The translations under genes were made by a program, and so were the position numbers. A stretch of 64,000 nucleotides of DNA. Source: a virus. The notes below the pieces were generated by a model, which worked only from the letters and a program-made list of their open reading frames with translations, had not been told where the DNA came from and searched no databases. Shown in pieces: positions 1,914 through 55,900 of the stretch. Position 1 is the stretch's first letter. Every line of letters begins with the position of its first letter. The stretch is taken from the UHGV virus genome UHGV-0371537; one strand, given 5' to 3'.

Positions 1914-1969
1914 TCAATAACCTCGGGCGGCTTATCATAAAGTCGCCCTTTCATTTGAGAGACTATATC

Positions 1970-13025: not shown

Positions 13026-13055
13026 AAATAATTCAATAAAAGGGGCTTTCGCCCC

Positions 13056-13084
13056 TTTACTTCTTCAATATCCTTCCCTATACT
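13056..13084 (+). promoter_or_regulatory. sigma70-like early promoter TTTACT-N17-TATACT
   Basis: -35 TTTACT (13056-13061), 17-bp spacer, -10 TATACT (13079-13084); directly after a hairpin. Confidence 0.55.
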
Positions 13085-17319: not shown

Positions 17320-17376
17320 GTCAATACGAAATAAAGGCATATAATTTTGCTCATTATTCACCGAAAGGAAAGGACA

Positions 17377-17988
17377 ATGAGCAAAATCTTTACCCCGACA
17401 CATCGTGAAGGATGTGAGATCGCGGCCAACTACCTGCGCGGTCGCATGAACTGCGGCGCAGTCTTCATCGAACCAAACTCCTTCGACAACAAAGAATCGC
17501 CAGATGCCATCGGGTTTCGTTCAGGCGGGTGCTCTGTCCTGATGGAAGTGAAGGTGTCCCGCGCCGACTTCCTCACCGACAAGAAGAAGCCCCATCGGAT
17601 GGACCCCACAACAGGGATGGGCGCATACCGCTTTTATGTCTGCCCTCAGGATGTGATCAGGGTTGAAGACCTGCCACCAAAGTGGGGGTTGTTCTACTTC
17701 ACACCTCGCAAGTCCCTGATGCCCGTTCATGTGCCGGACATGCAATACTCCTCGTTGTCATCACCAGAGCATTATCAGAAGTATCTTGATGAACAGATCA
17801 AGAGAGGAAGAACCGTCACCCGGCATATGCGCAGCTACATGGAACTTCTCGACGGCTTCGCCCACTTTGAGCGCAACACGGCTGGAGAACAGAATATCCT
17901 GTATGGGGCTTGGCGGCAACTGTGTATAGCTCAAAGTCGTGGTGTAGACTATACTGTGACCGAAGTGTTCCAGAGGCCGAAGATCTAA
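17377..17988 (+). CDS. PD-(D/E)XK nuclease-like protein
   Basis: Core ...PDAIGF...SVLMEVKVSRADF... fits a PD-(D/E)xK pattern; AAAGGAAAGGA SD. Confidence 0.4.
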   Translation: MSKIFTPTHREGCEIAANYLRGRMNCGAVFIEPNSFDNKESPDAIGFRSGGCSVLMEVKVSRADFLTDKKKPHRMDPTTGMGAYRFYVCPQDVIRVEDLPPKWGLFYFTPRKSLMPVHVPDMQYSSLSSPEHYQKYLDEQIKRGRTVTRHMRSYMELLDGFAHFERNTAGEQNILYGAWRQLCIAQSRGVDYTVTEVFQRPKI

Positions 17989-19249: not shown

Positions 19250-19278
19250 AACTTTTTACTTCACATCACCCTCCCTCC

Positions 19279-19306
19279 AGGCCTCGTCGAATGAGGCCTT
19301 TTAAAA
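19279..19306 (+). terminator. rho-independent terminator
   Basis: GGCCTC-gtcgaat-GAGGCC hairpin followed by TTTTAAAA. Confidence 0.6.
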
Positions 19307-19343
19307 TACTTCAAAAATATTTTAAAAATTTATTGAAAAAGAC

Positions 19344-19372
19344 TTTACTCTTCAATAATGATGCACTATTAT
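19344..19372 (+). promoter_or_regulatory. sigma70-like early promoter TTTACT-N17-TATTAT with AT-rich upstream region
   Basis: -35 TTTACT (19344-19349), 17-bp spacer, -10 TATTAT (19367-19372); preceded by TTTTAAAA repeats (UP-element-like). Confidence 0.55.
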
Positions 19373-19445
19373 AGTTCACATAGGGCGGTAACACACCGCC
19401 GAATGAAAAGTGAAACGAACCAACTACATTATGAGGAATTACATC

Positions 19446-20504: not shown

Positions 20505-20512
20505 TTTAAATA
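20505..20512 (+). promoter_or_regulatory. T4-type late promoter variant (TTTAAATA) upstream of endolysin
   Basis: TAAATA core about 30 nt upstream of ATG 20543. Confidence 0.45.
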
Positions 20513-20542
20513 CCTTCGCATTCATTGCGGAGGTATTTTCTT

Positions 20543-22284: not shown

Positions 22285-22353
22285 GTAACTCACCAACACT
22301 CCCCGCCGCCTTCAATCTACGAGGGCGGCGTATAATATGTTCCGAGACTAATC

Positions 22354-23013
22354 ATGAATTATCAAAATATCTATGACTCTCTGATACAAAGAGCCAAGAC
22401 CCGTTCATTGGTTGGTTATTCTGAAACCCACCATATTATCCCTAGATGTATGGGAGGGAAAGATGACAAACATAATCTGGTGGAGTTGACACCAGAAGAA
22501 CATTATTTAGCACATCAATTGTTAGTCAAAATATATCCCAAAAATTTCAAATTAGCATTTGCAGCTAATGCTATGTGCGTAAACAATGAATTCTCCGGTA
22601 GATCTTGTAACAAATTATTCGGTTGGTTGCGGAGAAAACTTTCTCATTCCAATAAACAGATGTACAAAGACAACCCTAATTTGAGGAAAATTCGTTCCGA
22701 TCAAATGAAACAGACACATGTAAAGTATTCTCATTTGCGGGAAATACAGTCTAAACGTTTGAAGGAAAACAATATATGCGTGATAAAACAACCTTGGGAA
22801 AGTAACCATGCCACCAAAGAGTCTTTGGATATATGGAAACGCGCCGACGAATATTATGATTGGTGGTTGTGCAACCAAAAAGGTTGCACGTTCATGGCGA
22901 AAGCGTTTGGGTTCAAAAACAAGACGACTCCGCATTTCACAATGATTAATAAATTTAAATCTGGGTGGAATCCCAAAGCCGACCCAGAGTGGTTAGAGTT
23001 TGTAAGTCAATAA
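22354..23013 (+). CDS. free-standing HNH homing endonuclease
   Basis: HNH core ETHHIIPRCMGGKDDKHNLVELTPEEHYLAH; inserted between phoH and nrdA. Confidence 0.75.
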   Translation: MNYQNIYDSLIQRAKTRSLVGYSETHHIIPRCMGGKDDKHNLVELTPEEHYLAHQLLVKIYPKNFKLAFAANAMCVNNEFSGRSCNKLFGWLRRKLSHSNKQMYKDNPNLRKIRSDQMKQTHVKYSHLREIQSKRLKENNICVIKQPWESNHATKESLDIWKRADEYYDWWLCNQKGCTFMAKAFGFKNKTTPHFTMINKFKSGWNPKADPEWLEFVSQ

Positions 23014-26770: not shown

Positions 26771-26777
26771 TCTGTCA

Positions 26778-26804
26778 AAGCCCCTCAATGAGGGGCTTTA
26801 CTTT
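26778..26804 (+). terminator. rho-independent terminator
   Basis: GCCCCTC-aat-GAGGGGC hairpin followed by TTTACTTTTG. Confidence 0.6.
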
Positions 26805-26825
26805 TGAAACACCCTCCCCTATACT
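26797..26825 (+). promoter_or_regulatory. sigma70-like early promoter TTTACT-N17-TATACT
   Basis: -35 TTTACT (26797-26802), 17-bp spacer, -10 TATACT (26820-26825); same architecture as 13056..13084. Confidence 0.55.
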
Positions 26826-32157: not shown

Positions 32158-32208
32158 TCCGGCGTAAATAGCCCATACACCAATGAAACTTCGTTATGGG
32201 CTATTTAC

Positions 32209-32799
32209 ATGAAATATTGCGGAATCGACTACTCATATGGTTGTCCATCCCTGTGCTTCTGGGATGACAAAGACCCTCTTGATTTTGACCACCTGCGCTT
32301 CTACGCATATTACACTGTGGAGAAGTACTGCTCTCAAATCCGTCAGAACATCCTTATCATGAAACAGCCGAAGTGGGAGACTCCAGAAGAGCGCTTCTAC
32401 AACATCTGTAAATGGGCTGAGGCTGTCCTGTTGACCGAGAAACCGGATGTGATCACTCTTGAGGGGTATGCTATGGGCAACTCCAAGAACTCCAACAACA
32501 TCTGCCAGACAGCAGAGAACACTTCTCTATTGAAGCAAGTTCTGCGTCGCCATAACCTGGAGTTTCAGATTGTGACACCTTCTCATGTTAAGAAGATGTT
32601 TACAGACAAAGGCAACGCCGATAAGATCGCCATGATCGCCCACTTCGAAACCCTGTTCAATGTTAATATGCGCGGTATAATGGATATGTTGGAAGTTAAG
32701 GATCCCAAGCCTATCGATGACCTCGTGGATTCGTTTGCAATCATGTCTTGCGGTTCTTACTTCATTGAGAATAATCCAGACTTCAACAGAGGTGTATGA
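32209..32799 (+). CDS. putative RuvC-like (RNase H-fold) Holliday junction resolvase
   Basis: Acidic residues in RuvC-like order: CGIDYS near N-terminus, ITLEGYAMG, DDLVDSFAIM near C-terminus. Confidence 0.35.
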   Translation: MKYCGIDYSYGCPSLCFWDDKDPLDFDHLRFYAYYTVEKYCSQIRQNILIMKQPKWETPEERFYNICKWAEAVLLTEKPDVITLEGYAMGNSKNSNNICQTAENTSLLKQVLRRHNLEFQIVTPSHVKKMFTDKGNADKIAMIAHFETLFNVNMRGIMDMLEVKDPKPIDDLVDSFAIMSCGSYFIENNPDFNRGV

Positions 32800-33110
32800 T
32801 GGTCGATTACTGGTTGTTGGCGAATTTCTTCACATTCGCTTTGTTGTTGGTGTTTGTACTGATATGGGTGAAGTCATTGTTGACTCTCGTCCATGCGTAC
32901 ATGTATCAGATCAACTTCTATACGTTGTCTCCCCACCGGGACACAAACGTCCGTGCGGATCAACAGGCCGAAGCCATCATTTCATACCAGTTCATTCACA
33001 TTCGCGATAAAATGATCAAGCGAGTTGTGTTTTCTACAGCAGTGTTACTGGCTATCATTATGGTTCGTTTTGTGCTGACAACTGTGGGGGTGTTCCATGC
33101 CGCTGTATGA
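32796..33110 (+). CDS. small membrane protein (two predicted TM segments)
   Basis: Hydrophobic N- and C-terminal segments. Confidence 0.4.
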   Translation: MMVDYWLLANFFTFALLLVFVLIWVKSLLTLVHAYMYQINFYTLSPHRDTNVRADQQAEAIISYQFIHIRDKMIKRVVFSTAVLLAIIMVRFVLTTVGVFHAAV

Positions 33111-33342
33111 TTATCAGTGCGGGGAATGCGGGAATGCGATGACGCTGCGGAAATCAATTGCAGACCGCCATGAACCAGAATCTAACCCTTGCGCTGAGTG
33201 CGGAGGGGAGATTAAAATGGTGGTGGGCGCTCCTAAGATCGTGTCTGGGGTTAAGGGACCACAATCTGCACCGGATGGTTTCAAGGACGTTCTGCGCACG
33301 ATTAAGAAAGGCTCTGGTAAGGGGAACACAATCGATGTCTGA
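33097..33342 (+). CDS. FmdB-family zinc-ribbon protein
   Basis: MPLYDYQCGECG ... CAECGG pattern (CxxC...CxxC). Confidence 0.5.
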   Translation: MPLYDYQCGECGNAMTLRKSIADRHEPESNPCAECGGEIKMVVGAPKIVSGVKGPQSAPDGFKDVLRTIKKGSGKGNTIDV

Positions 33343-33580
33343 TGATAAATCACCCACACAGGTGCTGACTGCAGACTCCTTCTCAGAAGCCGTTCTGCTC
33401 CGCGCCGCCCGTACCAGAGAAACTATCCTTGAGACACTCGTGGCTGTCTGTGAAGAAAACGACATAGATGAAACGAAGGTCAGAAAAATGATCACAGCAC
33501 CTCTACTGTCCCGACTAACAGCAGAGTGCTCCGATGCGCGTCTTATCAAAGACGTTCTGAAGTCGAAGAAATTAGTGTAG
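33335..33580 (+). CDS. hypothetical small protein
   Basis: ATG 33335 overlapping upstream stop. Confidence 0.35.
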   Translation: MSDDKSPTQVLTADSFSEAVLLRAARTRETILETLVAVCEENDIDETKVRKMITAPLLSRLTAECSDARLIKDVLKSKKLV

Positions 33581-33587
33581 GTCTATT

Positions 33588-33827
33588 ATGAGCAAAGAAT
33601 CAATTTACAGTGCAATGAAAGCCCAAGAGTTTCTGCCAGGCTCAATGCGCTGGCGTGTGGGTAGTCTGAACGAACATGCCGATCAGACGGATCGTATTCG
33701 TTATGTCACCCCTGATGGTCGCTCATATGTTGTTGAGTACCACACCCACGTAGAGAGCAAGAAGACGTTCTCCGACGTGTACGATATTATTGAAATTGAC
33801 CCAGCATTACAAATGCTTAAAGGTTAA
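33588..33827 (+). CDS. hypothetical small protein
   Basis: Small ORF; palindrome/terminator follows. Confidence 0.35.
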   Translation: MSKESIYSAMKAQEFLPGSMRWRVGSLNEHADQTDRIRYVTPDGRSYVVEYHTHVESKKTFSDVYDIIEIDPALQMLKG

Positions 33828-33840
33828 TTCAGTGCAGTAA

Positions 33841-33858
33841 CGGGGTATAATTACCCCG
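33841..33858 (+). repeat. TATAAT-containing palindrome (CGGGGTA-taat-TACCCCG) upstream of gp32
   Basis: Perfect 7-bp inverted repeat around TAAT, followed by CTTTAAAG; member of a recurring class. Confidence 0.5.
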
Positions 33859-33924
33859 CTTTAAAGTAAATCGATAATACATGCAACAGAATAGCCCTGA
33901 GGGGCGGAAACAGAGGAATTAGAA

Positions 33925-34962
33925 ATGGGTAATTTATTTGATCGTCTGAAGCAGTCCCGTGGTCAACAGGCCGACGCAATGCAGGCGCGTCTGGCACAGC
34001 AAGGCCAGAAGTCCGGCTTCCAGAAGGATCCTCGCATCTGGAAATGGACTTGGAATAAGGAAGGTATTTCTCAGAACACCATCCGCTTCCTGCCAGTTCC
34101 GCTGGTAGACGTCAAGGCACAAGAAGAAGGAACGATCGATAAAGATCAGATCCTGACTCCTTGCGCCATGATCATGAAGCATCAGTTCCAGGGACCTGGT
34201 GGTTGGTACATCGAAAACTCACCTCAGACGTTCGGCAACGACGACCCGGTGCGTGACCATGACCGTCCGCTGTGGGCGCAACAGAAAGAAACGAACGACG
34301 AAAAGCTGAAGGACGTGCTGAAGAAACGTCTGCCAGACACCAAATACTACGCCAACATCCTGGTGATCGAAGATGTCAACGTACCGGAAAACAACGGCAA
34401 GGTCTTCCTGCTGGAGTTTGGTAACGCCATCAAGAAAATCTTGGACCAGGCGCAGAATCCTAAGTTCCCGACCGACCCTAAATTCGACCCGTTCGATCTG
34501 TGGGAAGGTGCCAACCTGAACCTCAAGCTCTTCGGTGAGCAGAAGAAGTTCGGCAACTGGGAAGGTCTGGTGGCTAACTTCTCCAACGTCAGCTGGGCGG
34601 CTCCGGCTCCGCTGAGCGAAGACGAAGCCTACATGGAAGACGTGTGGTCTCGTGAACATAGCCTGTTTGAATTCTTCAACCCGGCGAATTTCAAGAGCTA
34701 CGATGACCTGGAGAAACGCCTGCGCAAAGTGCTGGCGATTCCTGATGGTCAGCCTCTGGTTGAAGGTGGTGCGGCTACTATGGCGCATGCCCCTACGAAC
34801 CAGGCTCCAGCACAACAGCCTGTTAAACAACAGCCAACTGCTCAAGACAGCCTGAACCAACAGCAATCACAACCTTCGCAGTCTGCTGTTAATCATCAGA
34901 CGCCGGATCCTAAAGCAACAGGGTCTATCGAAGACTTTGAGCAGTTCCTCAAAGATAACTGA
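33925..34962 (+). CDS. single-stranded DNA-binding protein, T4 gp32-like
   Basis: IRFLPVP, YYANILVIEDVNVPENNGKVFLLEFG, DLWEGANLNLKLFG resemble gp32 core; acidic C-terminus. Confidence 0.8.
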   Translation: MGNLFDRLKQSRGQQADAMQARLAQQGQKSGFQKDPRIWKWTWNKEGISQNTIRFLPVPLVDVKAQEEGTIDKDQILTPCAMIMKHQFQGPGGWYIENSPQTFGNDDPVRDHDRPLWAQQKETNDEKLKDVLKKRLPDTKYYANILVIEDVNVPENNGKVFLLEFGNAIKKILDQAQNPKFPTDPKFDPFDLWEGANLNLKLFGEQKKFGNWEGLVANFSNVSWAAPAPLSEDEAYMEDVWSREHSLFEFFNPANFKSYDDLEKRLRKVLAIPDGQPLVEGGAATMAHAPTNQAPAQQPVKQQPTAQDSLNQQQSQPSQSAVNHQTPDPKATGSIEDFEQFLKDN

Positions 34963-34965
34963 TTC

Positions 34966-34992
34966 AAAAGCCCTCTTCGGAGGGCTTTTTAT
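34966..34992. terminator. bidirectional rho-independent terminator
   Basis: GCCCTC-ttcg-GAGGGC hairpin flanked by AAAA and TTTTT between convergent genes. Confidence 0.65.
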
Positions 34993-35933
34993 TTCCCCAT
35001 CACGTCGCGCAAAATGCCGAGCAGATTTGTCTTTTCGGCTGCTGTCAAATTGTCATTTCCCATGATGTCTCGTGAGATACCAACTGAGATGCGCTCGAAG
35101 TCCTGGAGACTGATTCCAGCAAGGTTGTTCACCAATTGGTCCAGTTGTTTGTAAGCCAGGAGAGCCTCTCCTGTGAAGTTCCCTTCCTTCACCTTGCGAT
35201 AAAGCTGTCCGGCTTTGGAGGCCGCAGTTTCCCAGTCACCACTGGCAAGAGCATCAGCAATCCCAAGAGGAAGAAAATCGCTGGCAAGGCTGCGTGTTTC
35301 ATATTCTGTCTCCGATAAGACTTTGTTGTAAGAGAATGTGATGTTGTATTGGTTGAACTGGTCTGTGGCTCCCTTGTCCAGTTCGATTGTACTGAAGTTG
35401 ATCGGATGCGCTTCAACGATGTAGACGCGATGGACAACCTGATCTTCCGTATCCATCTGCTCGATACAGATATCGGTTACGAAATCTTCGTAATAACCCA
35501 TCTTGGTCGTGTACGGATCAAAGATCAGATTCTTCCACTTGTCCATCACAGACTTTTCATAATAATCGTTTGCCAAGAGGAATGTCAGATCCAAGTCCAC
35601 GTTGGACTTGTTGTTCGGCATCTTGATGTGGTTGCCGTTGTTGGTCATTGGAGTCGTGTCGATACCAACCCCTGGCATTCCAGCAACCATACACATCATT
35701 TGCAAGGAACGGGACGTTTGGTTTGTCCCTCCAAAGAAAGCGTTTACAATACGGGCTGTCTGTTTGAACAAATCACCAAACGAAGATCCGGTTGCATATG
35801 CCTTCCCGTCGTTGGCGAGAGTGGCATTGCTGTCGAATATGCCTGGTGGCAGGGGGATGGTGACCCGGAATCGGTTCTTCCGTGATATCCCGCGCTGTAA
35901 TAATTCGGTGATGAAATTGCGATAGTCTTCCAC
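34989..35933 (-). CDS. late structural protein, possibly tail-tube/baseplate associated (gp48/gp54-like)
   Basis: GTG start with AAGTGGAGT SD; minus-strand late orientation; weak resemblance only. Confidence 0.35.
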   Translation of the reverse strand: MEDYRNFITELLQRGISRKNRFRVTIPLPPGIFDSNATLANDGKAYATGSSFGDLFKQTARIVNAFFGGTNQTSRSLQMMCMVAGMPGVGIDTTPMTNNGNHIKMPNNKSNVDLDLTFLLANDYYEKSVMDKWKNLIFDPYTTKMGYYEDFVTDICIEQMDTEDQVVHRVYIVEAHPINFSTIELDKGATDQFNQYNITFSYNKVLSETEYETRSLASDFLPLGIADALASGDWETAASKAGQLYRKVKEGNFTGEALLAYKQLDQLVNNLAGISLQDFERISVGISRDIMGNDNLTAAEKTNLLGILRDVMGK

Positions 35934-35947
35934 GATGAGGACTCCAC

Positions 35948-35955
35948 TTAAATAT
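35948..35955 (+). promoter_or_regulatory. T4-type late promoter variant (TTAAATAT)
   Basis: TAAATA core about 32 nt upstream of ATG 35988. Confidence 0.45.
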
Positions 35956-35987
35956 GATATCTGTTGTTACTTATAAGGAGTTGACAA

Positions 35988-36689
35988 ATGGCAAAGAACA
36001 CAGCTGGTGAAGAAGATCCGTTGCTGTTCCCGGCCGAGATGGACGCCCCCGAGCTGGTCAAGCGTTACATCCGCAAGTACCGTCAACACTTCGGTCCAGA
36101 GGCGAAGCGTAACATTCGTCGTTCCCATACGTGGTTCATGGAGCGTGTGTCCAAAGACGCCAACTTGTCTCCGAACCATATGAAGCAGGCGTTTGCCGAC
36201 CATAAACGCCCGGTACAGGGTGTGAGATATGTGGTGGGGCGTATGTTCTATTTCAAATATGACGCCCTGACCAAGAATGAACTTCCGTACTGGGATATGT
36301 ACCCTCTTGTGTTCTTCTTCAACTTTGCCAAGGGTGATGGTATTACATTCGGGGAGAAGGGTGTAACTTATCTGTGGGGATTGAACATGCATTACTTGCC
36401 ACCGAAGCTCAGGCTGCTGGTGTTCGAAGATCTGATTAAGTTACGTAACGAAAGAGCGTATCGTTCAAAGACGCGCCTGAAACTCACTTGGGCTGCTCTG
36501 AAGCGTTTCGCCAACCACCCATTGTACAATCACTGCGTGAAGTTGTACCGTGCTGACCAGTTCCGTTCACAGTTGTATGAGATCGAACCACAGTACTGGG
36601 AAATCGTTCTCTTCATGCGCACTGCCCGCTTCCAGAAACAGAGTCAGATGTCTGTCTGGAAAGATGCCCGCCGAGTACACAAGAAATAG
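35988..36689 (+). CDS. hypothetical late protein
   Basis: ORF with AAGGAG SD downstream of late-promoter-like element. Confidence 0.45.
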   Translation: MAKNTAGEEDPLLFPAEMDAPELVKRYIRKYRQHFGPEAKRNIRRSHTWFMERVSKDANLSPNHMKQAFADHKRPVQGVRYVVGRMFYFKYDALTKNELPYWDMYPLVFFFNFAKGDGITFGEKGVTYLWGLNMHYLPPKLRLLVFEDLIKLRNERAYRSKTRLKLTWAALKRFANHPLYNHCVKLYRADQFRSQLYEIEPQYWEIVLFMRTARFQKQSQMSVWKDARRVHKK

Positions 36690-36697
36690 TTCTATAA

Positions 36698-36726
36698 CCC
36701 GTTCCGGGTGATAATTCGCGAACGGG
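36698..36726 (+). repeat. palindrome CCCGTTC-N15-GAACGGG containing GATAAT
   Basis: 7-bp inverted repeat with 15-nt loop upstream of gene 36754. Confidence 0.4.
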
Positions 36727-36753
36727 TAATTCCTTCAACAATGAGGCTATATC

Positions 36754-37497
36754 ATGTCACAAATCTATCGTCTGTTTGGGCTGGATTTCACACCAGCTCG
36801 TCTTGATGTGAAACTGACCACCTTCGAACCAACCGGATTTGAAGTGGGGTGCGCTCTGGGGTTTAATCGCCAGGGTAAATCTGTCCGTGAACAAAACATC
36901 TTGGATGTCTTGGGCGTTGAGTGGGATAGCCCTACCGCCTTGGATTTAGAAGATCAGGTCAAGTATGGGAATCAAGAAATCGCAGACTTCTTGCGTGATG
37001 TCTTGGCTGGCTACGAACACGCAAAATCCCATGTGAAAATGGCACAAGAAGCGTGTCTCAGACTATCACATTGCCTGTATTACCTTGGCCGCCACCGCAG
37101 TGATATGCAAATCGATTTCCCTGTCAATGTTCTGGAGCAATTCTCCAAGACTGAGTTTTACCTGGCGCAGGCTGATGGTGTGGTCATGAAAGCGAGTGAT
37201 GTGTTCAAGCACACCGCGAACGTGTCCAACGGGCATTTGCTGGTTGGGTGTGATCAGGTTGAACTGAAGATTGACCCAGACATGGAATATGACCAGAACA
37301 CCTGTCGGGCGATTCACAATTACATCAGCGTGATTGTTGAAACTCTGTACAGTGCGATTGAAGAAGTCATGGCCACTGAACAAAGGGAAGAAGTGATTCG
37401 CAGAGTTCGGGAAAACGTCGAAGCCAGAGTGAAACTGCAGTTCACACCATCTGAATATTCAGAAGACATCCCCAACTTCTACTTGCTGGATAAGTGA
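36754..37497 (+). CDS. hypothetical protein
   Basis: ATG 36754 after TGAGG SD. Confidence 0.45.
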   Translation: MSQIYRLFGLDFTPARLDVKLTTFEPTGFEVGCALGFNRQGKSVREQNILDVLGVEWDSPTALDLEDQVKYGNQEIADFLRDVLAGYEHAKSHVKMAQEACLRLSHCLYYLGRHRSDMQIDFPVNVLEQFSKTEFYLAQADGVVMKASDVFKHTANVSNGHLLVGCDQVELKIDPDMEYDQNTCRAIHNYISVIVETLYSAIEEVMATEQREEVIRRVRENVEARVKLQFTPSEYSEDIPNFYLLDK

Positions 37498-37547
37498 ATA
37501 AAACTTGTTTTCAATACTGACGTTGAAAGTTAATATTCACGCAAGTT

Positions 37548-37575
37548 CGCGCTCCGCTTGGCGGGGCGCTGTTTA
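37548..37575 (+). terminator. rho-independent terminator
   Basis: CGCGCTCCGC-ttg-GCGGGGCGC hairpin (one G-U) followed by TGTTT. Confidence 0.5.
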
Positions 37576-37611
37576 ACATGAAGGTGTTAACTTCTTTTCA
37601 ATAAAAAGTGG

Positions 37612-37639
37612 TTTACATCTATGAAAAATGCAGTATATT
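37612..37639 (+). promoter_or_regulatory. sigma70-like promoter TTTACA-N16-TATATT
   Basis: -35 TTTACA (37612-37617), 16-bp spacer, -10 TATATT (37634-37639), AT-rich upstream. Confidence 0.5.
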
Positions 37640-37709
37640 ATGTTCTCACTACACAGTCAGAACAGCAATATGCCGCGAAGACGGTCTTAATAACGAAAGG
37701 GTTTTTATT

Positions 37710-38606
37710 ATGTCATATATTCTTCATGTAGAATCTGGTTCTAAATTTGATATTGAAGGCAAAGACGTTGCGGCTATCCAGGCCGAGATCAAGGCCGCAG
37801 GCCTGCTGATTGGCAACGTTACCCTGCGCCGTATGGTTGAAGGTGCTCTTGAATCTGCTAACGGCTTCGAACTCATCGAAGGTCTGAGCGAAGAAGAGCG
37901 ACAGGAAACTCAGGAAGCTCTGGCGCAAGCACAAGAGCAGGCTGAAGCCGTGGAAGCACTGAACGTAGCCGACACCGTAGCCGATGAAGCGCCGATTTCT
38001 GCTGACGCCACTTCTGGTATCGTTGTCGATTCTCAGGACGTGAAACCTGCCGAAGGTGATCAGGCGGCTGACACTGGCGCAACCACCGCATCCTCCGATG
38101 CTATCAAAGATGCCGTTGCCGAAGCCCTGAAAGAAGGCGATCAACCGTCCGACGCGAAAGTGAGTTCCCTGGCGTCTTCTATGCTGAAAGAAGCGGCGAA
38201 GGGTAAAACCCTGACACCTATGGCATCACAGGAAGAGCGTAAGCGCCGTCACACCAAACGCGAAGAAATGGTAGAAGCCGCTCGTGCGTCCAACCACGGT
38301 CCAATCCTGGCTGCCATTGAAGCAGGCGTCGTGCCGGGTGTGTTCCTCAGCTATGTTAACCCTGATATGCGCTGGTTCCAATTCCCAGTCACAGAACTGG
38401 CAGACCCAGAGAACCTGCATGCCCGCACTAACACATACGTTGACGTCGCGCCTATCGTTTCCGGCGGCTGGGGCTTCAGTCTGTACGTGAACGGCAAATC
38501 CTTCACTAAGCGTCAGAAAATCAAAGAGGCCGATGCCGAGTCTCTGGTGAACGCAATCAATGCCTGGTTGCCTCAGGCGCTGGCCGAAGCGAAAGCTGCT
38601 GCTTAA
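37710..38606 (+). CDS. acidic Ala/Glu-rich protein of unknown function
   Basis: ATG 37710 (MSYILHVESG...); long low-complexity A/E/D-rich centre. Confidence 0.45.
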   Translation: MSYILHVESGSKFDIEGKDVAAIQAEIKAAGLLIGNVTLRRMVEGALESANGFELIEGLSEEERQETQEALAQAQEQAEAVEALNVADTVADEAPISADATSGIVVDSQDVKPAEGDQAADTGATTASSDAIKDAVAEALKEGDQPSDAKVSSLASSMLKEAAKGKTLTPMASQEERKRRHTKREEMVEAARASNHGPILAAIEAGVVPGVFLSYVNPDMRWFQFPVTELADPENLHARTNTYVDVAPIVSGGWGFSLYVNGKSFTKRQKIKEADAESLVNAINAWLPQALAEAKAAA

Positions 38607-38636
38607 TTTAAGTTCAGAATCTGTTCAATAGATGAA

Positions 38637-38668
38637 GGGGCTGCTATAATAGCAGCTCCTTTTGTTTA
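38637..38668 (+). terminator. rho-independent terminator with TATAAT in the hairpin
   Basis: GGGCTGCTAT-A-ATAGCAGCTCC hairpin followed by TTTTGTTTATT; TGcTATAAT (extended -10-like) inside the stem. Confidence 0.6.
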
Positions 38669-38680
38669 TTGGAGCAGTCT

Positions 38681-39346
38681 ATGTCCTACTCCCTCAAGGG
38701 GTTGCTCAAGCGCCCCGTCCACACATTCATTAAACCGCCTGTCGTAAAGGGGATATACCCGGCACGAGGGCAAATCTATTACGTCAAAGGCTCGAATGGT
38801 AGCGGTAAATCTACCGTGCCTTCCCAGCTGGCGGAGAGGGATCCTCAGGCGTATGTCGTGACGCATGATAGCAAGATCATGCTGACGGTCTGTCCGTCAT
38901 TCAACGTGGTCTGCATTGGCAAATATGATAAGTCAAAGTCCAAGGGGGTTGATTCTCTGAAGGATACTGAACAAATGCTATTCGCCCTGAGCATCGCCGA
39001 TCTACCTGAATATCAGGTATACGATGTGATCTTTGAAGGCATCATCCCGTCAACACTGCTGAGTTCCTGGATTCCCCGCCTGACGCGCCCACCGCGCGAA
39101 CTGGTTGTCCTCTTCATGGACACCCCTCTTGAAACCTGCATCGCCCGTGTTAAATCACGTAACGGCGGTGCGGACTTCAATGAGAGCCTCGTGGTAGAGA
39201 AGTGGGGGCGCGTTCAAGACCACCGCCAGCGCCATAAGGGCTTGTTCCCTACGGTGGCCGCAGGTATGATGAAGTCTCACGGTCTAACAGTAGACCAGGC
39301 TGTAATGGCATTCCTCTGTCGTGATTTTGGGGATATTGATGACTAA
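38681..39346 (+). CDS. P-loop kinase (candidate nucleotide/nucleic-acid kinase of the base-modification module)
   Basis: Walker A GSNGSGKST near N-terminus; ATG 38681 with GGAG SD; adjacent to TS-family and dNMP kinase genes. Confidence 0.55.
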   Translation: MSYSLKGLLKRPVHTFIKPPVVKGIYPARGQIYYVKGSNGSGKSTVPSQLAERDPQAYVVTHDSKIMLTVCPSFNVVCIGKYDKSKSKGVDSLKDTEQMLFALSIADLPEYQVYDVIFEGIIPSTLLSSWIPRLTRPPRELVVLFMDTPLETCIARVKSRNGGADFNESLVVEKWGRVQDHRQRHKGLFPTVAAGMMKSHGLTVDQAVMAFLCRDFGDIDD

Positions 39347-45429: not shown

Positions 45430-45458
45430 TTCAATAAAGCAGATCATAGGGTATAATT
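45430..45458 (+). promoter_or_regulatory. sigma70-like promoter TTCAAT-N17-TATAAT inside a palindrome
   Basis: -10 TATAAT (45453-45458) lies in the loop of palindrome AGATCATAG/CTATGATCT (45441-45467). Confidence 0.45.
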
Positions 45459-45490
45459 CTATGATCTGAATGTTAAACCAGGAGCACATC

Positions 45491-46289: not shown

Positions 46290-47483
46290 ATGAACGCCAA
46301 AACATTCAACATTCCGATCGACAATGAAGGGCTAGTGGTTGAGCGACTGAAAAAGCTCGAGCGCACTGCTGTCCGTCTGGGTGTACCATTCCCGACTGTG
46401 ACTTATGGTGAACCCTTCAAGACCCACACCCGTGACTTCACTGGTGAGATCCTCACTCACTGGTGGAAGCCCGTCACCCTCGAAGGTGAAGGCATTGACC
46501 GCCCGGTGTCATACGGTGGTTGGAAAATCATTGGTCAGTTCAATCACGAATACCCAAAGGTCATTCTGAACCGACTGTCCGACAATATCAATGCTGACTT
46601 CATCCGTCGCTTCGAGACAGAGAATGTCTCTTGGTGCCAGCATTGCAACCTGCTCATCAATCGCAAGAACACATATGTGATTGAAAACGAGGAAACGCAC
46701 ACTCAGATGCTGATCGGCAGCACCTGCATGCATCATTATGTGCCTCATCAGAAGTCCCTTGACGCGATCATGTCTTACTATCTGGGAATCCAGGAGTTCT
46801 TCATGCCGGATGAAGATGATCCAGAGGGCATCTATCGCGTTCGTAACGAACAATTCACAGATACCCACAATTACCTGCGTGCGTGCTTCCAGGTGATGCT
46901 GTCTGGCGTAGACATCAAGTCTGAACTATTTGACAAAGTCCTGGGCTATGTCCGGTCTTATCAGAAACCAAAAGCAGGTTCCGATGAAGAGCATTTCGTA
47001 TACAAGGCACACGAGTACCGTGAAGACGCCGAGTCAGAAATGTACCACATGAAGCTCTTCATCAGTGCGCTGTCTGAATCCAATGAATTCAACGTTCGCC
47101 TGAAACGCATGTGTGAACCGGGCTACCACCTGATCAAGGACGATAACACAGTCCGCTGGGGTGCCAAGAAGTATTACGATTACATCCATCGCCCTCGCGC
47201 CGACCGCAAGACAGAGAACAAATGGGTGGGCGAAGTCGGGGAGATGCTGGAAGTACAAGTCAGGTTCGACAAGCGCGTCTTCCTCTTCTCCAATGAATAC
47301 GGTGACAGCTACCTGTTTACTTTCAAAACAGTAGAAGGCAATACAATTACCTGGAAGACCTCTTGTATGGATACAGAGTTCTTGCAGGGCGATATGATCA
47401 TCCGTGGTCGTGTCAAAGAACTGACTGAGTACAACGGTGTTAAACAAACTCAGGTCACCCGAGCCAAATTGAGGAAATTATGA
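46290..47483 (+). CDS. hypothetical protein (Cys/His-rich centre)
   Basis: ATG 46290 (MNAKTF...); no confident family. Confidence 0.5.
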   Translation: MNAKTFNIPIDNEGLVVERLKKLERTAVRLGVPFPTVTYGEPFKTHTRDFTGEILTHWWKPVTLEGEGIDRPVSYGGWKIIGQFNHEYPKVILNRLSDNINADFIRRFETENVSWCQHCNLLINRKNTYVIENEETHTQMLIGSTCMHHYVPHQKSLDAIMSYYLGIQEFFMPDEDDPEGIYRVRNEQFTDTHNYLRACFQVMLSGVDIKSELFDKVLGYVRSYQKPKAGSDEEHFVYKAHEYREDAESEMYHMKLFISALSESNEFNVRLKRMCEPGYHLIKDDNTVRWGAKKYYDYIHRPRADRKTENKWVGEVGEMLEVQVRFDKRVFLFSNEYGDSYLFTFKTVEGNTITWKTSCMDTEFLQGDMIIRGRVKELTEYNGVKQTQVTRAKLRKL

Positions 47484-47593
47484 ATTTGATTGAGTTTGTT
47501 CTGAAGTCGTTCGCCTTTGGTCTGATAGCATGCGGAGTGATTACAGCTATGCTTGTCATCATAGCTCTGATCATCCCCTTTAAGAGGAAATAG
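47480..47593 (+). CDS. small hydrophobic peptide (37 aa), not in ORF track
   Basis: ATGA overlap with upstream stop; MNLIEFVLKSFAFGLIACGVITAMLVIIALIIPFKRK is a single TM helix. Confidence 0.3.
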   Translation: MNLIEFVLKSFAFGLIACGVITAMLVIIALIIPFKRK

Positions 47594-47595
47594 AG

Positions 47596-47757
47596 ATGAA
47601 ACGTGAAATCATGGATGTGTATGATCCAGGGTCTTGTTGTCCCGGTCATGACAAGTATCCATCCGATACTTACAAGAATCGACGTTCCAAAGCGCAACGC
47701 TCCAAGAGTATTAAGAAGGAGCATCGCCACGCTCGTCGTGTAAGCGTCTGGGGCTGA
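47596..47757 (+). CDS. small basic protein (53 aa), not in ORF track
   Basis: AAGAGGAAA SD; MKREIMDVYDPGSCCPGHDKY... with Arg/Lys-rich tail. Confidence 0.3.
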   Translation: MKREIMDVYDPGSCCPGHDKYPSDTYKNRRSKAQRSKSIKKEHRHARRVSVWG

Positions 47758-47794
47758 AAGCTGGCCTGAATACCATTACGTGGGAGGACTTTTG

Positions 47795-48007
47795 ATGGAA
47801 TGTTCATGCGGAGGGCAGGGCACAAGTGCTTACCTGCCATTTACCACCGTGAAGGAAGCCGAAGCCGCCGGGTTTGCCGTGGACAAGGCTCCCTGTGTAA
47901 TCGCCACGAAGGATTGCCCGTGCTGTAAGAGGCACTCTCAGGACGTCTTCTACGCCCCTGACGCGCGCCCAGCTACGGTCAACCTGCTTTCACTGATGAG
48001 GAAGTGA
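47795..48007 (+). CDS. small Cys-rich protein
   Basis: GGGAGGA SD; MECSCGG...CVIATKDCPCCKRH (putative metal-binding). Confidence 0.3.
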   Translation: MECSCGGQGTSAYLPFTTVKEAEAAGFAVDKAPCVIATKDCPCCKRHSQDVFYAPDARPATVNLLSLMRK

Positions 48008-48069
48008 AATGCGCAAGTATTTCAACTGGTTGTTGGCAAGATCCCGCAGCCAATAATCTATTGAAGTCC

Positions 48070-48102
48070 CCAGGGTTATAATAGCAACACATATAACCCT
48101 GG
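48070..48102 (+). repeat. palindrome CCAGGGTTATA-N11-TATAACCCTGG overlapping ligase SD
   Basis: 11-bp perfect inverted repeat; left arm contains TATAAT (48077-48082), right arm abuts SD GGAG (48101-48104). Confidence 0.5.
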
Positions 48103-48111
48103 AGACATTAC

Positions 48112-49755: not shown

Positions 49756-50013
49756 ATGGACGAGCTATTCGCATTGGTGTGGTCATTAACGTTCTTGCTG
49801 TCCCTGGTTGTCAGCTCGCTTGTGATGGTGCTGGTGTGGATAGCTATTCCCGACATTAAGAACCACAGGGTGCTCATTGCCGTGATGATCCTCGGCCTGA
49901 GCACTTCCCTTACTCTTCACTATTCCAAACAGGAGTATAATCCTGACAAACATTACAAGACATTAGCGGAACGATATCATGATTTCAAAACTTCGAGAAG
50001 TCAAGGAAAATAA
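49756..50013 (+). CDS. small membrane protein
   Basis: Two hydrophobic segments. Confidence 0.35.
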   Translation: MDELFALVWSLTFLLSLVVSSLVMVLVWIAIPDIKNHRVLIAVMILGLSTSLTLHYSKQEYNPDKHYKTLAERYHDFKTSRSQGK

Positions 50014-55870: not shown

Positions 55871-55878
55871 TTAAATAG
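55871..55878 (+). promoter_or_regulatory. late promoter variant (TTAAATAG), plus strand
   Basis: TAAATA core about 31 nt upstream of ATG 55910. Confidence 0.45.
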
Positions 55879-55892
55879 ATAGAGTGTTATGG

Positions 55893-55900
55893 CTATTTAG
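55893..55900 (-). promoter_or_regulatory. late promoter variant (CTAAATAG), minus strand
   Basis: Reverse complement of CTATTTAG; about 33 nt upstream of start 55859; inverted-repeat partner of the plus-strand element. Confidence 0.45.

What the first reader, a model, noticed from the sequence alone, without database searches (positions are those of the whole stretch)
33841..33858. Recurring intergenic palindromes with TATAAT in the centre, several doubling as terminators
At least five intergenic sites share one architecture: a GC-rich inverted repeat whose loop or inner stem contains TATAAT or a close variant. Instances are 33841..33858, 38638..38659 (followed by a T-run, with a TGcTATAAT extended -10), 45441..45467, 48070..48102 and 36698..36726 (GATAAT). 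They appear to couple termination of the upstream unit with initiation of the downstream one, or to serve as operators for a common DNA-binding protein such as the HU-like or HTH proteins encoded here.
Basis: seen in the sequence. Interest (0 to 1): 0.5.

Follow-up and report, generated by a model that had tools for sequence, protein, structure and literature searches.

The report
Promoter -10 boxes nested in RNA hairpins
In this ViI-like (Ackermannviridae) phage, the short gaps before several early genes hold a conserved TATAAT promoter box nested inside a conserved RNA hairpin, so RNA arriving from upstream carries the hairpin (a stop signal or a mask over the ribosome site) while RNA started there does not. 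This compact layout is real, but T4-like phages already show the same kind.

Summary
All five palindromes exist at the stated coordinates. Four TATAAT hexamers lie inside perfect inverted repeats of at least 7 bp, against 0.26 expected in shuffles (0 of 300 reach 4). The window is an Ackermannviridae phage. The sites lie upstream of gp32, an ORF048-like gene, tk, an ORF038-like gene and DNA ligase.

Each site is conserved across several genera. The hexamer is invariant, while the stems change by compensatory or G·U-type substitutions (24 G·U columns against 5 A·C). That asymmetry indicates an RNA hairpin on the sense strand, not a DNA operator. The arms share no sequence between sites.

The hexamer belongs to the published ViI-type motif TTCAAT[N14]TATAAT, here with looser spacing. 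A start site about 7 nt downstream would put every 5' arm upstream of the start, so only read-through RNA could fold.

Only 38634-38662 (plus a sixth site I found at 1925-1948) is a canonical terminator. At the ligase site the stem buries the Shine-Dalgarno sequence, as in T4 genes e, soc and 49.

The central position of the -10 is largely explained by crowding in 56-104 nt gaps (P = 0.15).

Verdict: a real composite promoter/hairpin element, closest to T4-type PeSLs. New member of a known kind; promoter activity is untested.

The parts
33841..33858 (+). S1, upstream of gp32 (ATG 33925). Hairpin CGGGGTA/TACCCCG with TATAAT at 33846-33851 spanning the 5' arm and loop. TTCAGT box at 33828-33833. 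No U-tract.
   Evidence: dG -12.5, z -3.3. CG<->GC change at the outer pair, the stem is degraded in Kuttervirus, and the hexamer is invariant (TATAAA in Serratia phage KNP4).
36697..36727 (+). S5, upstream of the ORF048-like gene (ATG 36754). 8-bp stem ACCCGTTC/GAACGGGT with GATAAT at 36710-36715 in the loop. TTCTAT at 36690-36695, 14 nt upstream.
   Evidence: dG -18.4, z -4.0. CG<->GC compensatory change in Kuttervirus..
38624..38674 (+). S2, upstream of tk (ATG 38681). TTCAAT at 38624-38629. Terminator hairpin at 38634-38662 with TGCTATAAT at the apex (-10 at 38645-38650). T-run at 38660-38670. In the extended helix TTCAAT pairs with AUUGGA, which overlaps the Shine-Dalgarno GGAG at 38671-38674.
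   Evidence: top terminator-like hit, 13 pairs; 23-pair consensus; all variation is wobble-compatible except 2 cells; z -5.6. LIMEstone1 annotates the orthologous site only as a terminator. KNP4 has a different stem with GCTATAAT at the apex and a T-run.
45430..45468 (+). S3, upstream of the ORF038-like gene (ATG 45491). TTCAAT at 45430-45435. 10-bp stem at 45440-45468 with TATAAT at 45452-45457 in the loop. No U-tract; the Shine-Dalgarno AGGAG at 45480-45484 lies outside the stem.
   Evidence: dG -15.5, z -6.6; 3 pairs with compensatory double changes; covariation score 0.308 against 0.190, reached by 0 of 500 shuffles..
48066..48106 (+). S4, upstream of DNA ligase (ATG 48112). Core stem at 48070-48102, extended helix at 48066-48106. 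TATAAT at 48077-48082 in the 5' arm and loop. The 3' arm contains the Shine-Dalgarno GGAGA at 48101-48105.
   Evidence: dG -20.4, z -6.4; 14-pair helix in 8 distinct sequences from at least 3 lineages; AU/GU/GC at one pair, CG<->UG and UA<->UG at others; 99% of cells paired against 27-54% when the partner is slid, but no formal covariation.
1914..1956 (+). S7, a sixth site that I found, upstream of the gene at 1970. TCAAT at 1914-1918, then 14 nt, then TATCAT at 1933-1938 in the loop of a 9-pair hairpin at 1925-1948, followed by TTTCATTT.
   Evidence: z -5.5; top terminator-like hit; conserved in relatives with changed stems (GGCGGTT/AACCGCC, hexamer TATTAT in Kuttervirus).
22304..22336 (+). 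Related layout. The hairpin at 22304-22330 encloses TTCAAT (22311-22316), and its 3' arm abuts TATAAT (22331-22336). Upstream of the gene at 22354.
   Evidence: (z -4.7); compensatory CGCCGCC/GGCGGCG <-> CGTCGCC/GGCGACG in relatives.
17340..17387 (+). Related layout. TATAAT at 17340-17345 overlaps the start of a 12-bp stem (17344-17387) whose 3' arm is the start codon region AUGAGCAAAAU of the gene at 17377.
   Evidence: z -5.7; TCAAT N14 TATAAT. GCTCAT/ATGAGC <-> GCCCAT/ATGGGC compensatory change between the non-coding arm and codon 2.
32656..32681 (+). Exact TTCAAT N14 TATAAT without a hairpin, inside the ruvC-like ORF. It shows that the hexamer class exists independently of any hairpin.
   Evidence: codons GGT-ATA-ATG are invariant across genera while nearby synonymous sites vary.

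Best explanation
Each site is two overlapping signals packed into a short intergenic gap of an Ackermannviridae (ViI-like) phage.

1. A DNA-level promoter of the family's TTCAAT...TATAAT class. It has a perfect -10 hexamer, a TTCAAT-like box centred near -30, and no canonical -35.

2. An RNA hairpin encoded on the same strand, whose arms occupy the promoter spacer and the region just after the -10.

If transcription starts about 7 nt after the hexamer, every 5' arm lies upstream of the start. RNA made from the embedded promoter then cannot form the hairpin, while RNA reading through from upstream can.

What the hairpin does to read-through RNA differs by site:
- At 38634-38662 and 1925-1948 it is a canonical intrinsic terminator.
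- At 48066-48106 it buries the ligase Shine-Dalgarno sequence; at 17344-17387 it buries the start codon.
- At 33841, 36697 and 45440 it lacks a U-tract. There it most likely acts as a weak attenuator or a protective 3'-end structure.

The net effect is that expression of the downstream gene depends on its own promoter rather than on read-through.

Shown: the sites, their enrichment, their conservation, the invariance of the hexamer, and selection for sense-strand RNA pairing.
Inferred: promoter activity, start-site position, termination, translational masking, and any temporal meaning.

The central placement of the -10 is probably a packing consequence. G+C-containing arms can only be fitted on either side of an A/T hexamer.
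For: Identity and context: the best match is Shigella phage ChubbyThor at 88%, and gene order matches LIMEstone1.

Enrichment:
- 4 enveloped TATAAT against 0.26 expected; 0 of 300 shuffles reach 4.
- The effect is specific to TATAAT among hexamers of the same composition.
- TTCAAT N12-16 TATAAT occurs 4 times against 0.03 expected.

Conservation:
- All five sites recur at orthologous positions in Limestonevirus-, Kuttervirus- and Taipeivirus-like genomes and in IME250.
- Miltonvirus KNP4 has equivalents with unrelated stems: 4 enveloped against 0.08 expected.

RNA-level selection:
- There are compensatory changes at S3, S5, S1, 22304 and 17344.
- Across nine sites, 24 pair columns show G.U against 5 with A.C, binomial P = 3e-4, and 12 columns show Watson-Crick to Watson-Crick double changes.

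Independence of the hexamer from hairpin geometry: it sits in a loop, in a 5' arm, 3' of a hairpin, 5' of a hairpin, or with no hairpin at all. In the S4 loop the neighbouring bases vary freely.

Per-site function:
- Terminator criteria are met at S2 and S7.
- The Shine-Dalgarno sequence lies within the conserved S4 helix.
- The AUG lies within the 17344 helix.

Precedents:
- PeSL stem-loops can overlap the -10 box (PMC2839356).
- T4 genes e, soc, 49 and I-TevI use a hairpin that only the longer transcripts can form (PMC3014915).
- The TTCAAT[N14]TATAAT motif is published for this phage group (PMC7283392).
Against: - No transcript 5' or 3' ends are available for any relative, so promoter and terminator activity are unproven.
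- None of the five sites is a canonical sigma-70 promoter: the scan lists none of them, and TTCAAT spacing varies from 12 to 16 nt. Recognition may need an unknown factor, since the CBA120 genome paper reports no MotA or AsiA (PMC3184105).
- Four of the five listed hairpins have no U-tract.
- The S1 stem is broken in Kuttervirus.
- S4 shows no formal covariation.
- Computed accessibility of the translation start differs only modestly between long and short transcripts.
- The enveloping geometry is not significantly beyond crowding.
Confidence: 0.6

Rival explanations
1. Crowding only. An ordinary promoter and an ordinary terminator or stabiliser hairpin are independent elements that overlap because the gaps are short. 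The overlap has no regulatory consequence of its own.
For: - Positional null: 4.2 of 8 envelopments expected, 6 observed, P = 0.15.
- Almost every gap between same-strand genes in the window holds a hairpin, whichever promoter type is present.
- Hairpin position relative to the hexamer varies from site to site.
Against: - The overlap is kept at orthologous sites across genera while the stems are rebuilt.
- At S4 and 17344 the 3' arm is the ribosome-binding or start codon region. The hairpin therefore has a consequence that depends on where the RNA starts.
- In all eight sites the 5' arm starts upstream of the inferred start site.
Confidence: 0.25
2. The conserved UAUAAU is an RNA signal, for example a nuclease or protein site presented in a loop, and not a promoter box.
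For: The hexamer is invariant and single-stranded, or partly so, in four hairpins.
Against: - The hexamer is found in a loop, in a stem, outside the hairpin on either side, and without any hairpin.
- It is preceded by TTCAAT at a near-fixed distance, 4 times against 0.03 expected.
- It lies 35-44 nt upstream of start codons at most sites.
- There is no Rfam match.
Confidence: 0.04
3. The palindromes are operators for one dimeric DNA-binding protein of the phage.
For: They are dyad-symmetric and overlap a promoter, where repressors usually bind.
Against: - No shared word longer than 4 nt occurs between the arms of different sites.
- Stem lengths range from 7 to 14 bp and loops from 3 to 15 nt.
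- Substitutions keep pairing rather than sequence, and G.T is tolerated far more often than A.C.
Confidence: 0.03
4. DNA-level cruciform. Supercoiling extrudes the palindrome and presents the -10 as single-stranded DNA to help promoter opening, by analogy with the hairpin promoters of phage N4.
For: The -10 sits at the apex at S1, S2 and S3.
Against: - The strand-asymmetric wobble pattern fits RNA, not DNA.
- Stems of 7-8 bp with loops up to 15 nt extrude poorly (established knowledge of cruciform energetics).
- Other members of the promoter class have the hexamer outside the hairpin or have no hairpin.
Confidence: 0.03
5. Chance co-occurrence of A/T hexamers and inverted repeats.
For: The total TATAAT count (13 on +, 6 on -) is close to the random expectation of about 15 per strand.
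Against: - 0 of 300 shuffles reach the observed number.
- The sites recur at orthologous positions across genera.
- KNP4 replicates the pattern.
Confidence: 0.01

Closest known systems
PeSLs (promoter-early stem-loops) of T4-type phages RB49/phi1, PST and nt-1 (Arbiol et al. 2010, PMC2839356; Comeau et al. 2014, PMC4122927)
   Same: - Both are intergenic composite cassettes made of a promoter plus a stable stem-loop, followed by a Shine-Dalgarno sequence and ATG.
- The stem-loop can sit upstream of, between, or overlapping the -35 or -10 boxes.
- The stem-loop was proposed, and for PeSLs tested, as a terminator or attenuator of upstream transcription.
- Two cassettes in this window (13039-13084 and 26777-26825) match the classic form.
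   Different: - The promoter here is not sigma-70-like: a TTCAAT box lies 12-16 nt from the -10 instead of TTGACA at N17.
- The stems of different copies are unrelated, so they offer no homology for recombination.
- The sites lie at fixed orthologous positions in the conserved replication and nucleotide-metabolism block, not in ORFan-rich hyperplastic regions.
- Only the stretch upstream of S4 varies in gene content.
T4 genes e, soc, 49 and I-TevI: an inhibitory hairpin over the ribosome-binding site, with a promoter inside it (reviewed in PMC3014915)
   Same: A promoter lies in the 5' part of a hairpin whose 3' part holds the Shine-Dalgarno sequence or AUG, so only transcripts started inside are translated well. 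This applies to S4 (48066-48106), 17344-17387 and partly S2. It also applies to the late-type hairpins at 32164-32208 and 20508-20538.
   Different: - In T4 the internal promoter is a late one (TATAAATA) and delays expression to the late period.
- Here the TATAAT sites precede early or middle-type genes (ligase, tk, gp32).
- S1, S3 and S5 do not touch the ribosome-binding site.
ViI-type regulatory motif TTCAAT[N14]TATAAT, quoted for phage EspM4VN (PMC7283392)
   Same: Same hexamers and same phage family. Two exact copies occur in the window (22311-22336 and 32656-32681).
   Different: - The published motif is a fixed-spacing string with no mention of hairpins in the papers I could read.
- The five listed sites are spacing or sequence variants (N12, N15, N16, mismatches) that the strict string misses.
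Promoter-coupled terminators of bacteria (Fletcher et al., bioRxiv 2026, 10.64898/2026.08.19.745784)
   Same: A terminator and the next promoter share DNA between tandem genes, and the preprint demonstrates functional interference between the two.
   Different: In bacteria the stem-loop coincides with the -35, the T-tract lies just upstream of the -10, and termination occurs about 10 bp upstream of the start site. Here the hairpin is centred on the -10 and the T-tract lies downstream of the inferred start site.

Membership tests
Intrinsic (Rho-independent) terminator | Stable stem with G-C pairs and a short loop of 3-8 nt | tested here: met
   Met at S1, S2 and S7. S3 has a 9-nt loop, or 3 nt with G.U pairs. 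S4 and S5 have loops of 11-15 nt.
Intrinsic (Rho-independent) terminator | U-tract (at least 5 T in 8) directly after the stem | tested here: not met
   Present only at S2 (38660-38670) and S7 (1949-1956). Absent at S1, S3, S4 and S5, none of which the scan lists. Relatives also lack it there.
Sigma-70 consensus promoter | -10 hexamer TATAAT | tested here: met
   Perfect at S1-S4, GATAAT at S5, TATCAT at S7. Invariant across genera.
Sigma-70 consensus promoter | -35 hexamer resembling TTGACA, 16-18 nt upstream | tested here: not met
   None of the five sites appears in the consensus scan. An extended -10 TGn is present only at S2.
ViI-type motif TTCAAT[N14]TATAAT | Exact hexamers with a 14-nt spacer | tested here: inconclusive
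   Exact at 22311-22336 and 32656-32681. S2 has N15 and S3 has N16. S1, S5, S7 and 49917 match with 1-2 mismatches or N12. S4 has only an inverted ATTGAA.
PeSL | Promoter plus stem-loop cassette in the gap directly upstream of a Shine-Dalgarno sequence and ATG | tested here: met
   The -10 lies 35-44 nt from the ATG at four of the five listed sites and at S7.
PeSL | Copies similar enough to each other to recombine; association with indels and ORFans | tested here: not met
   The arms of different sites are unrelated and the sites are orthologous and fixed. Exceptions: gene content varies just upstream of S4, and the 13039 and 26777 cassettes resemble each other.
PeSL | Measured promoter and terminator activity | not testable with these tools
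   Needs reporter fusions or transcript mapping.
T4 e/soc/49-type masked ribosome site with internal promoter | Shine-Dalgarno sequence or AUG inside the helix | tested here: inconclusive
   Met at S4, at 17344-17387, and partly at S2. Not met at S1, S3 and S5.
T4 e/soc/49-type masked ribosome site with internal promoter | Transcripts from the internal promoter lack the 5' arm | not testable with these tools
   Follows from the geometry if the start is about 7 nt after the hexamer. No start site has been mapped.
Promoter-coupled terminator (Fletcher et al. 2026) | Stem-loop at the -35, T-tract upstream of the -10, termination about 10 bp upstream of the start site | tested here: not met
   At S1-S5 the hairpin is centred on the -10, and at S2 the T-run lies after the inferred start. 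The defined geometry is seen instead at 13039-13084 and 26777-26825.

The most novel reading that the evidence does not exclude
The overlap could be an active two-way switch rather than mere packing. In this reading, the -10 sequence in the hairpin pauses sigma-containing elongation complexes, or RNA polymerase (or a TTCAAT-binding phage factor) sitting on the embedded promoter blocks them. Hairpins without a U-tract would then still stop upstream transcription, and the stopping efficiency would track promoter occupancy. Together with the late-type motif found in the 5' arm of hairpins at 20508, 32164 and 55872, this would amount to a family-wide rule: in Ackermannviridae each gene is expressed only from its own promoter class, without MotA/AsiA-type factors.
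Probability: 0.1. Interest if true: 0.6.

Novelty: new member of a known kind. Interest (0 to 1): 0.35.

Why it matters
Early and middle transcription signals of ViI-like phages have been an acknowledged gap. The CBA120 genome paper could not identify them and found no MotA or AsiA (PMC3184105).

This analysis adds three things:
- A looser definition of the TTCAAT...TATAAT promoter class.
- Six or more concrete sites, with coordinates, to test.
- Evidence that the adjoining hairpins are conserved sense-strand RNA structures that only read-through RNA can form.

If confirmed, the pattern would explain how a compact 155-160 kb phage genome insulates many short transcription units. It would also improve annotation: LIMEstone1 marks only one of these sites, and only as a terminator. 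As biology, it extends principles already established in T4-like phages.

Tried and rejected
- The Rfam gathering search of the whole window gave no match.
- The consensus sigma-70 scan did not recover any of the five sites. I did not treat them as ordinary host-type promoters.
- Two literature searches for transcript mapping in Ackermannviridae found nothing usable. The family review has no text on promoters.
- The ligase site is not conserved in Serratia phage KNP4, where the upstream gene abuts ligase.
- Formal covariation at S4 was not significant.
- Automatic alignment failed for S7 and 17377 once distant relatives were included, so I read those two by eye.
- Partition-function accessibility of the translation start in long versus short transcripts gave only modest differences. 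I do not use it as evidence.
- Distant relatives from Aeromonas and Vibrio (L064-L066) showed no enveloped TATAAT in the one 13-kb region I had for each. The pattern is therefore demonstrated only for the enterobacterial genera and Miltonvirus.
- I rejected the T4-type late promoter reading for the TATAAT sites. The late-type motif of this family (CTAAATAcCcc) is distinct and occurs at other sites.

Full report
**What the window is.** Megablast of 33000-39000 finds 274 phage records. The best is Shigella phage ChubbyThor at 88% identity, followed by Yersinia, Enterobacter and Dickeya phages. The Dickeya record I retrieved (LIMEstone1) and the other related records I retrieved are classed as Ackermannviridae. 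The annotated LIMEstone1 record shows the same gene order. In that order the five sites lie directly upstream of gp32 (ssDNA-binding protein), an ORF048-like gene, thymidylate kinase, an ORF038-like gene and DNA ligase gp30. All are on the + strand, within the replication and nucleotide-metabolism block.

- 33841-33858: 7-bp stem.
- 38634-38662: 13 pairs, then TTTTGTTTATT.
- 45440-45468: 10-bp stem.
- 48070-48102: 11-bp stem, extendable to 48066-48106.
- 36697-36727: 8-bp stem, with GATAAT.

The window holds only 13 (+) and 6 (-) copies of TATAAT. Four of them lie inside perfect inverted repeats of at least 7 bp. Dinucleotide shuffles give 0.26-0.28 such cases, and none of 300 reaches four. 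Among the 20 hexamers of identical composition, TATAAT stands out with 4 of 13 enveloped; the rest total 8 of 182, mostly shifted readings of the same sites. As RNA, the hairpins fold with z-scores of -3.3 to -6.6.

Two details of the description need correcting. The arms are not uniformly GC-rich. Only one of the five has a terminator-type T-run.

**More members.** Reading every intergenic gap turned up a sixth full member at 1914-1956. It has TCAAT, 14 nt, then TATCAT in the loop of a 9-pair hairpin followed by TTTCATTT. This is the top terminator-like hit in its region. There are weaker versions at 921-938 and 49930-49945.

Two related layouts also appeared:
- At 22304-22336 the hairpin encloses TTCAAT and abuts TATAAT.
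- At 17340-17387 TATAAT overlaps the start of a 12-bp stem whose 3' arm is the start codon region of the next gene.

**The hexamer is a promoter-class element that does not depend on the hairpin.**
- The exact pattern TTCAAT N12-16 TATAAT occurs four times against 0.03 expected.
- A published description of related phage EspM4VN quotes TTCAAT[N14]TATAAT as a regulatory motif of this phage group (PMC7283392).
- The hexamer sits 35-44 nt upstream of the start codon at most sites.
- Its position relative to hairpins varies: in a loop, in a 5' arm, 3' of a hairpin, 5' of one, or with none at all, as at 32656-32681 inside an ORF.
- At that intragenic copy the codons GGT-ATA-ATG are invariant across genera while neighbouring synonymous sites vary.
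- Within the S4 loop the bases next to the hexamer vary freely, but the hexamer does not.

None of the five sites is a consensus sigma-70 promoter, because no TTGACA-like box lies at 16-18 nt. The CBA120 genome paper reported no MotA or AsiA and could not find the early or middle promoters (PMC3184105). How these promoters are recognised therefore remains open.

**The hairpins are selected as sense-strand RNA.** I collected orthologous gaps from 19-24 related genomes per region in IMG/VR, plus LIMEstone1 and Serratia phage KNP4. All five sites recur in Limestonevirus-, Kuttervirus- and Taipeivirus-like genomes and in IME250.

| Site | Result |
|---|---|
| S3 | Three pairs with compensatory double changes; covariation score above all 500 shuffles |
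| S5 | CG<->GC exchange |
| S1 | CG<->GC exchange, but the stem is degraded in Kuttervirus |
| S2 | 23-pair helix in which nearly all variation is wobble-compatible |
| S4 | 14-pair helix kept in all eight distinct sequences through UA/UG, CG/UG and AU/GU/GC states; no formal covariation |

Across nine sites, 24 pair columns show G·U and only 5 show A·C, and 12 show Watson-Crick double changes (P = 3e-4). A DNA-level palindrome or a protein operator would not show this strand asymmetry.

KNP4 (Miltonvirus) has hairpins of unrelated sequence with GCTATAAT or GGTATAAT at the apex, one of them followed by a T-run. It has four enveloped hexamers against 0.08 expected.

**How it most likely works.** If transcription starts about 7 nt after the hexamer, the 5' arm of every hairpin lies upstream of the start. 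The hairpin then exists only in RNA that reads through from the upstream gene. What it does to that RNA differs by site:
- S2 and S7 meet terminator criteria.
- At S4 the conserved helix contains the ligase Shine-Dalgarno GGAGA.
- At 17344-17387 the helix contains the AUG. A compensatory change links the non-coding arm to codon 2.
- In S2 the extended helix also pairs TTCAAT with the Shine-Dalgarno region.
- S1, S3 and S5 have neither a U-tract nor contact with the ribosome site. Attenuation or 3'-end protection is my guess for these three.

The consequence would be that each downstream gene depends on its own promoter. This is the logic of T4 genes e, soc, 49 and I-TevI (PMC3014915). It is also the logic of the PeSL cassettes of T4-type phages, whose stem-loops may overlap the -10 box (PMC2839356).

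**What limits the claim.**
- The geometry itself is weak evidence. If a hairpin and a -10 must share a gap of 56-104 nt, envelopment is expected in 4.2 of 8 cases and is seen in 6 (P = 0.15). G+C-containing arms can only be placed on either side of an A/T hexamer, so a central -10 may simply be how two signals fit together.
- Promoter activity, start sites, termination and masking are all inferred. I found no transcript mapping for this family.
- Computed accessibility differences between long and short transcripts were modest.

**The operator idea.** The arms of different sites share no word longer than 4 nt outside the hexamer. Stem and loop sizes differ. Evolution keeps pairing, not sequence. 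A common dimeric DNA-binding protein is therefore very unlikely.

**Comparison and novelty.** The elements work like PeSLs and, at some sites, like T4 masked-ribosome-site hairpins. They differ from PeSLs in three ways:
- The promoter type differs.
- There is no homology between copies.
- The positions are fixed and orthologous.

They differ from the bacterial promoter-coupled terminators of Fletcher et al. in register. Here the hairpin is centred on the -10 rather than the -35, and the T-tract follows the inferred start instead of preceding the -10.

I rate this a new member of a known kind. It is useful for annotating and testing Ackermannviridae transcription, but not surprising in principle.

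Noticed in passing
window 20508-20538, 32164-32208, 55872-55899: The family's late-type motif (C/G)TAAATA(C/G)CC lies in the 5' arm of strong conserved hairpins (z -5.9 to -7.8 at the first two). The 3' arm ends at or within a few nt of the next start codon at 20508-20538 and 32164-32208. At 55872 both arms carry the motif between divergent genes. The 32164 hairpin is kept, with compensatory changes, as far out as Serratia phage KNP4. It looks like the T4 gene e/soc arrangement applied to late promoters.
   Followed up: partly
window 33894-33905: A small conserved hairpin GCCC-UGAG-GGGC sits in the gp32 leader about 20 nt before the Shine-Dalgarno sequence, preceded by an A/U-rich stretch. KNP4 has GCCG...CGGC at the same place. 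It may be an autoregulatory operator like the one in the T4 gene 32 leader.
   Followed up: no
window 13039-13084 and 26777-26825: Two similar cassettes of about 40 nt each: a terminator hairpin whose T-run runs into TTTACT, then 17 nt, then TATACT. This is a sigma-70/T4-early-like promoter placed immediately after a terminator. These two match the classic PeSL and promoter-coupled-terminator geometry better than the listed sites do.
   Followed up: partly
window 19250-19445: A 196-nt gap holds three consecutive palindromes: a terminator at 19279-19299, an A/T-only 10-bp stem at 19299-19327, and a third at 19330-19358. It also holds a minus-strand TATAAT at 19368-19373 pointing back into them. 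Its purpose is unknown; a small antisense RNA or another cis element are possibilities.
   Followed up: no
window 47480-48065; loci L024-L039: Gene content just upstream of the ligase site differs between genera: small ORFs are replaced or an extra ORF of about 130 aa is present. The variable stretch ends exactly at AATAAT(C/T)TATTGAAGTC, the start of the S4 cassette. This resembles the indel boundaries reported at PeSLs.
   Followed up: partly
window 32656-32681: An exact TTCAAT N14 TATAAT lies inside the ruvC-like ORF about 120 nt before the next gene. The rare Ile codon ATA and its neighbours are invariant across genera, suggesting an internal promoter constrained together with the protein sequence.
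   Followed up: partly
locus L001 (LIMEstone1) 17703-17734: The deposited annotation marks the S2 orthologue only as a terminator, and the annotated tk CDS overlaps it. None of the other four orthologous sites carries any regulatory annotation.
   Followed up: no
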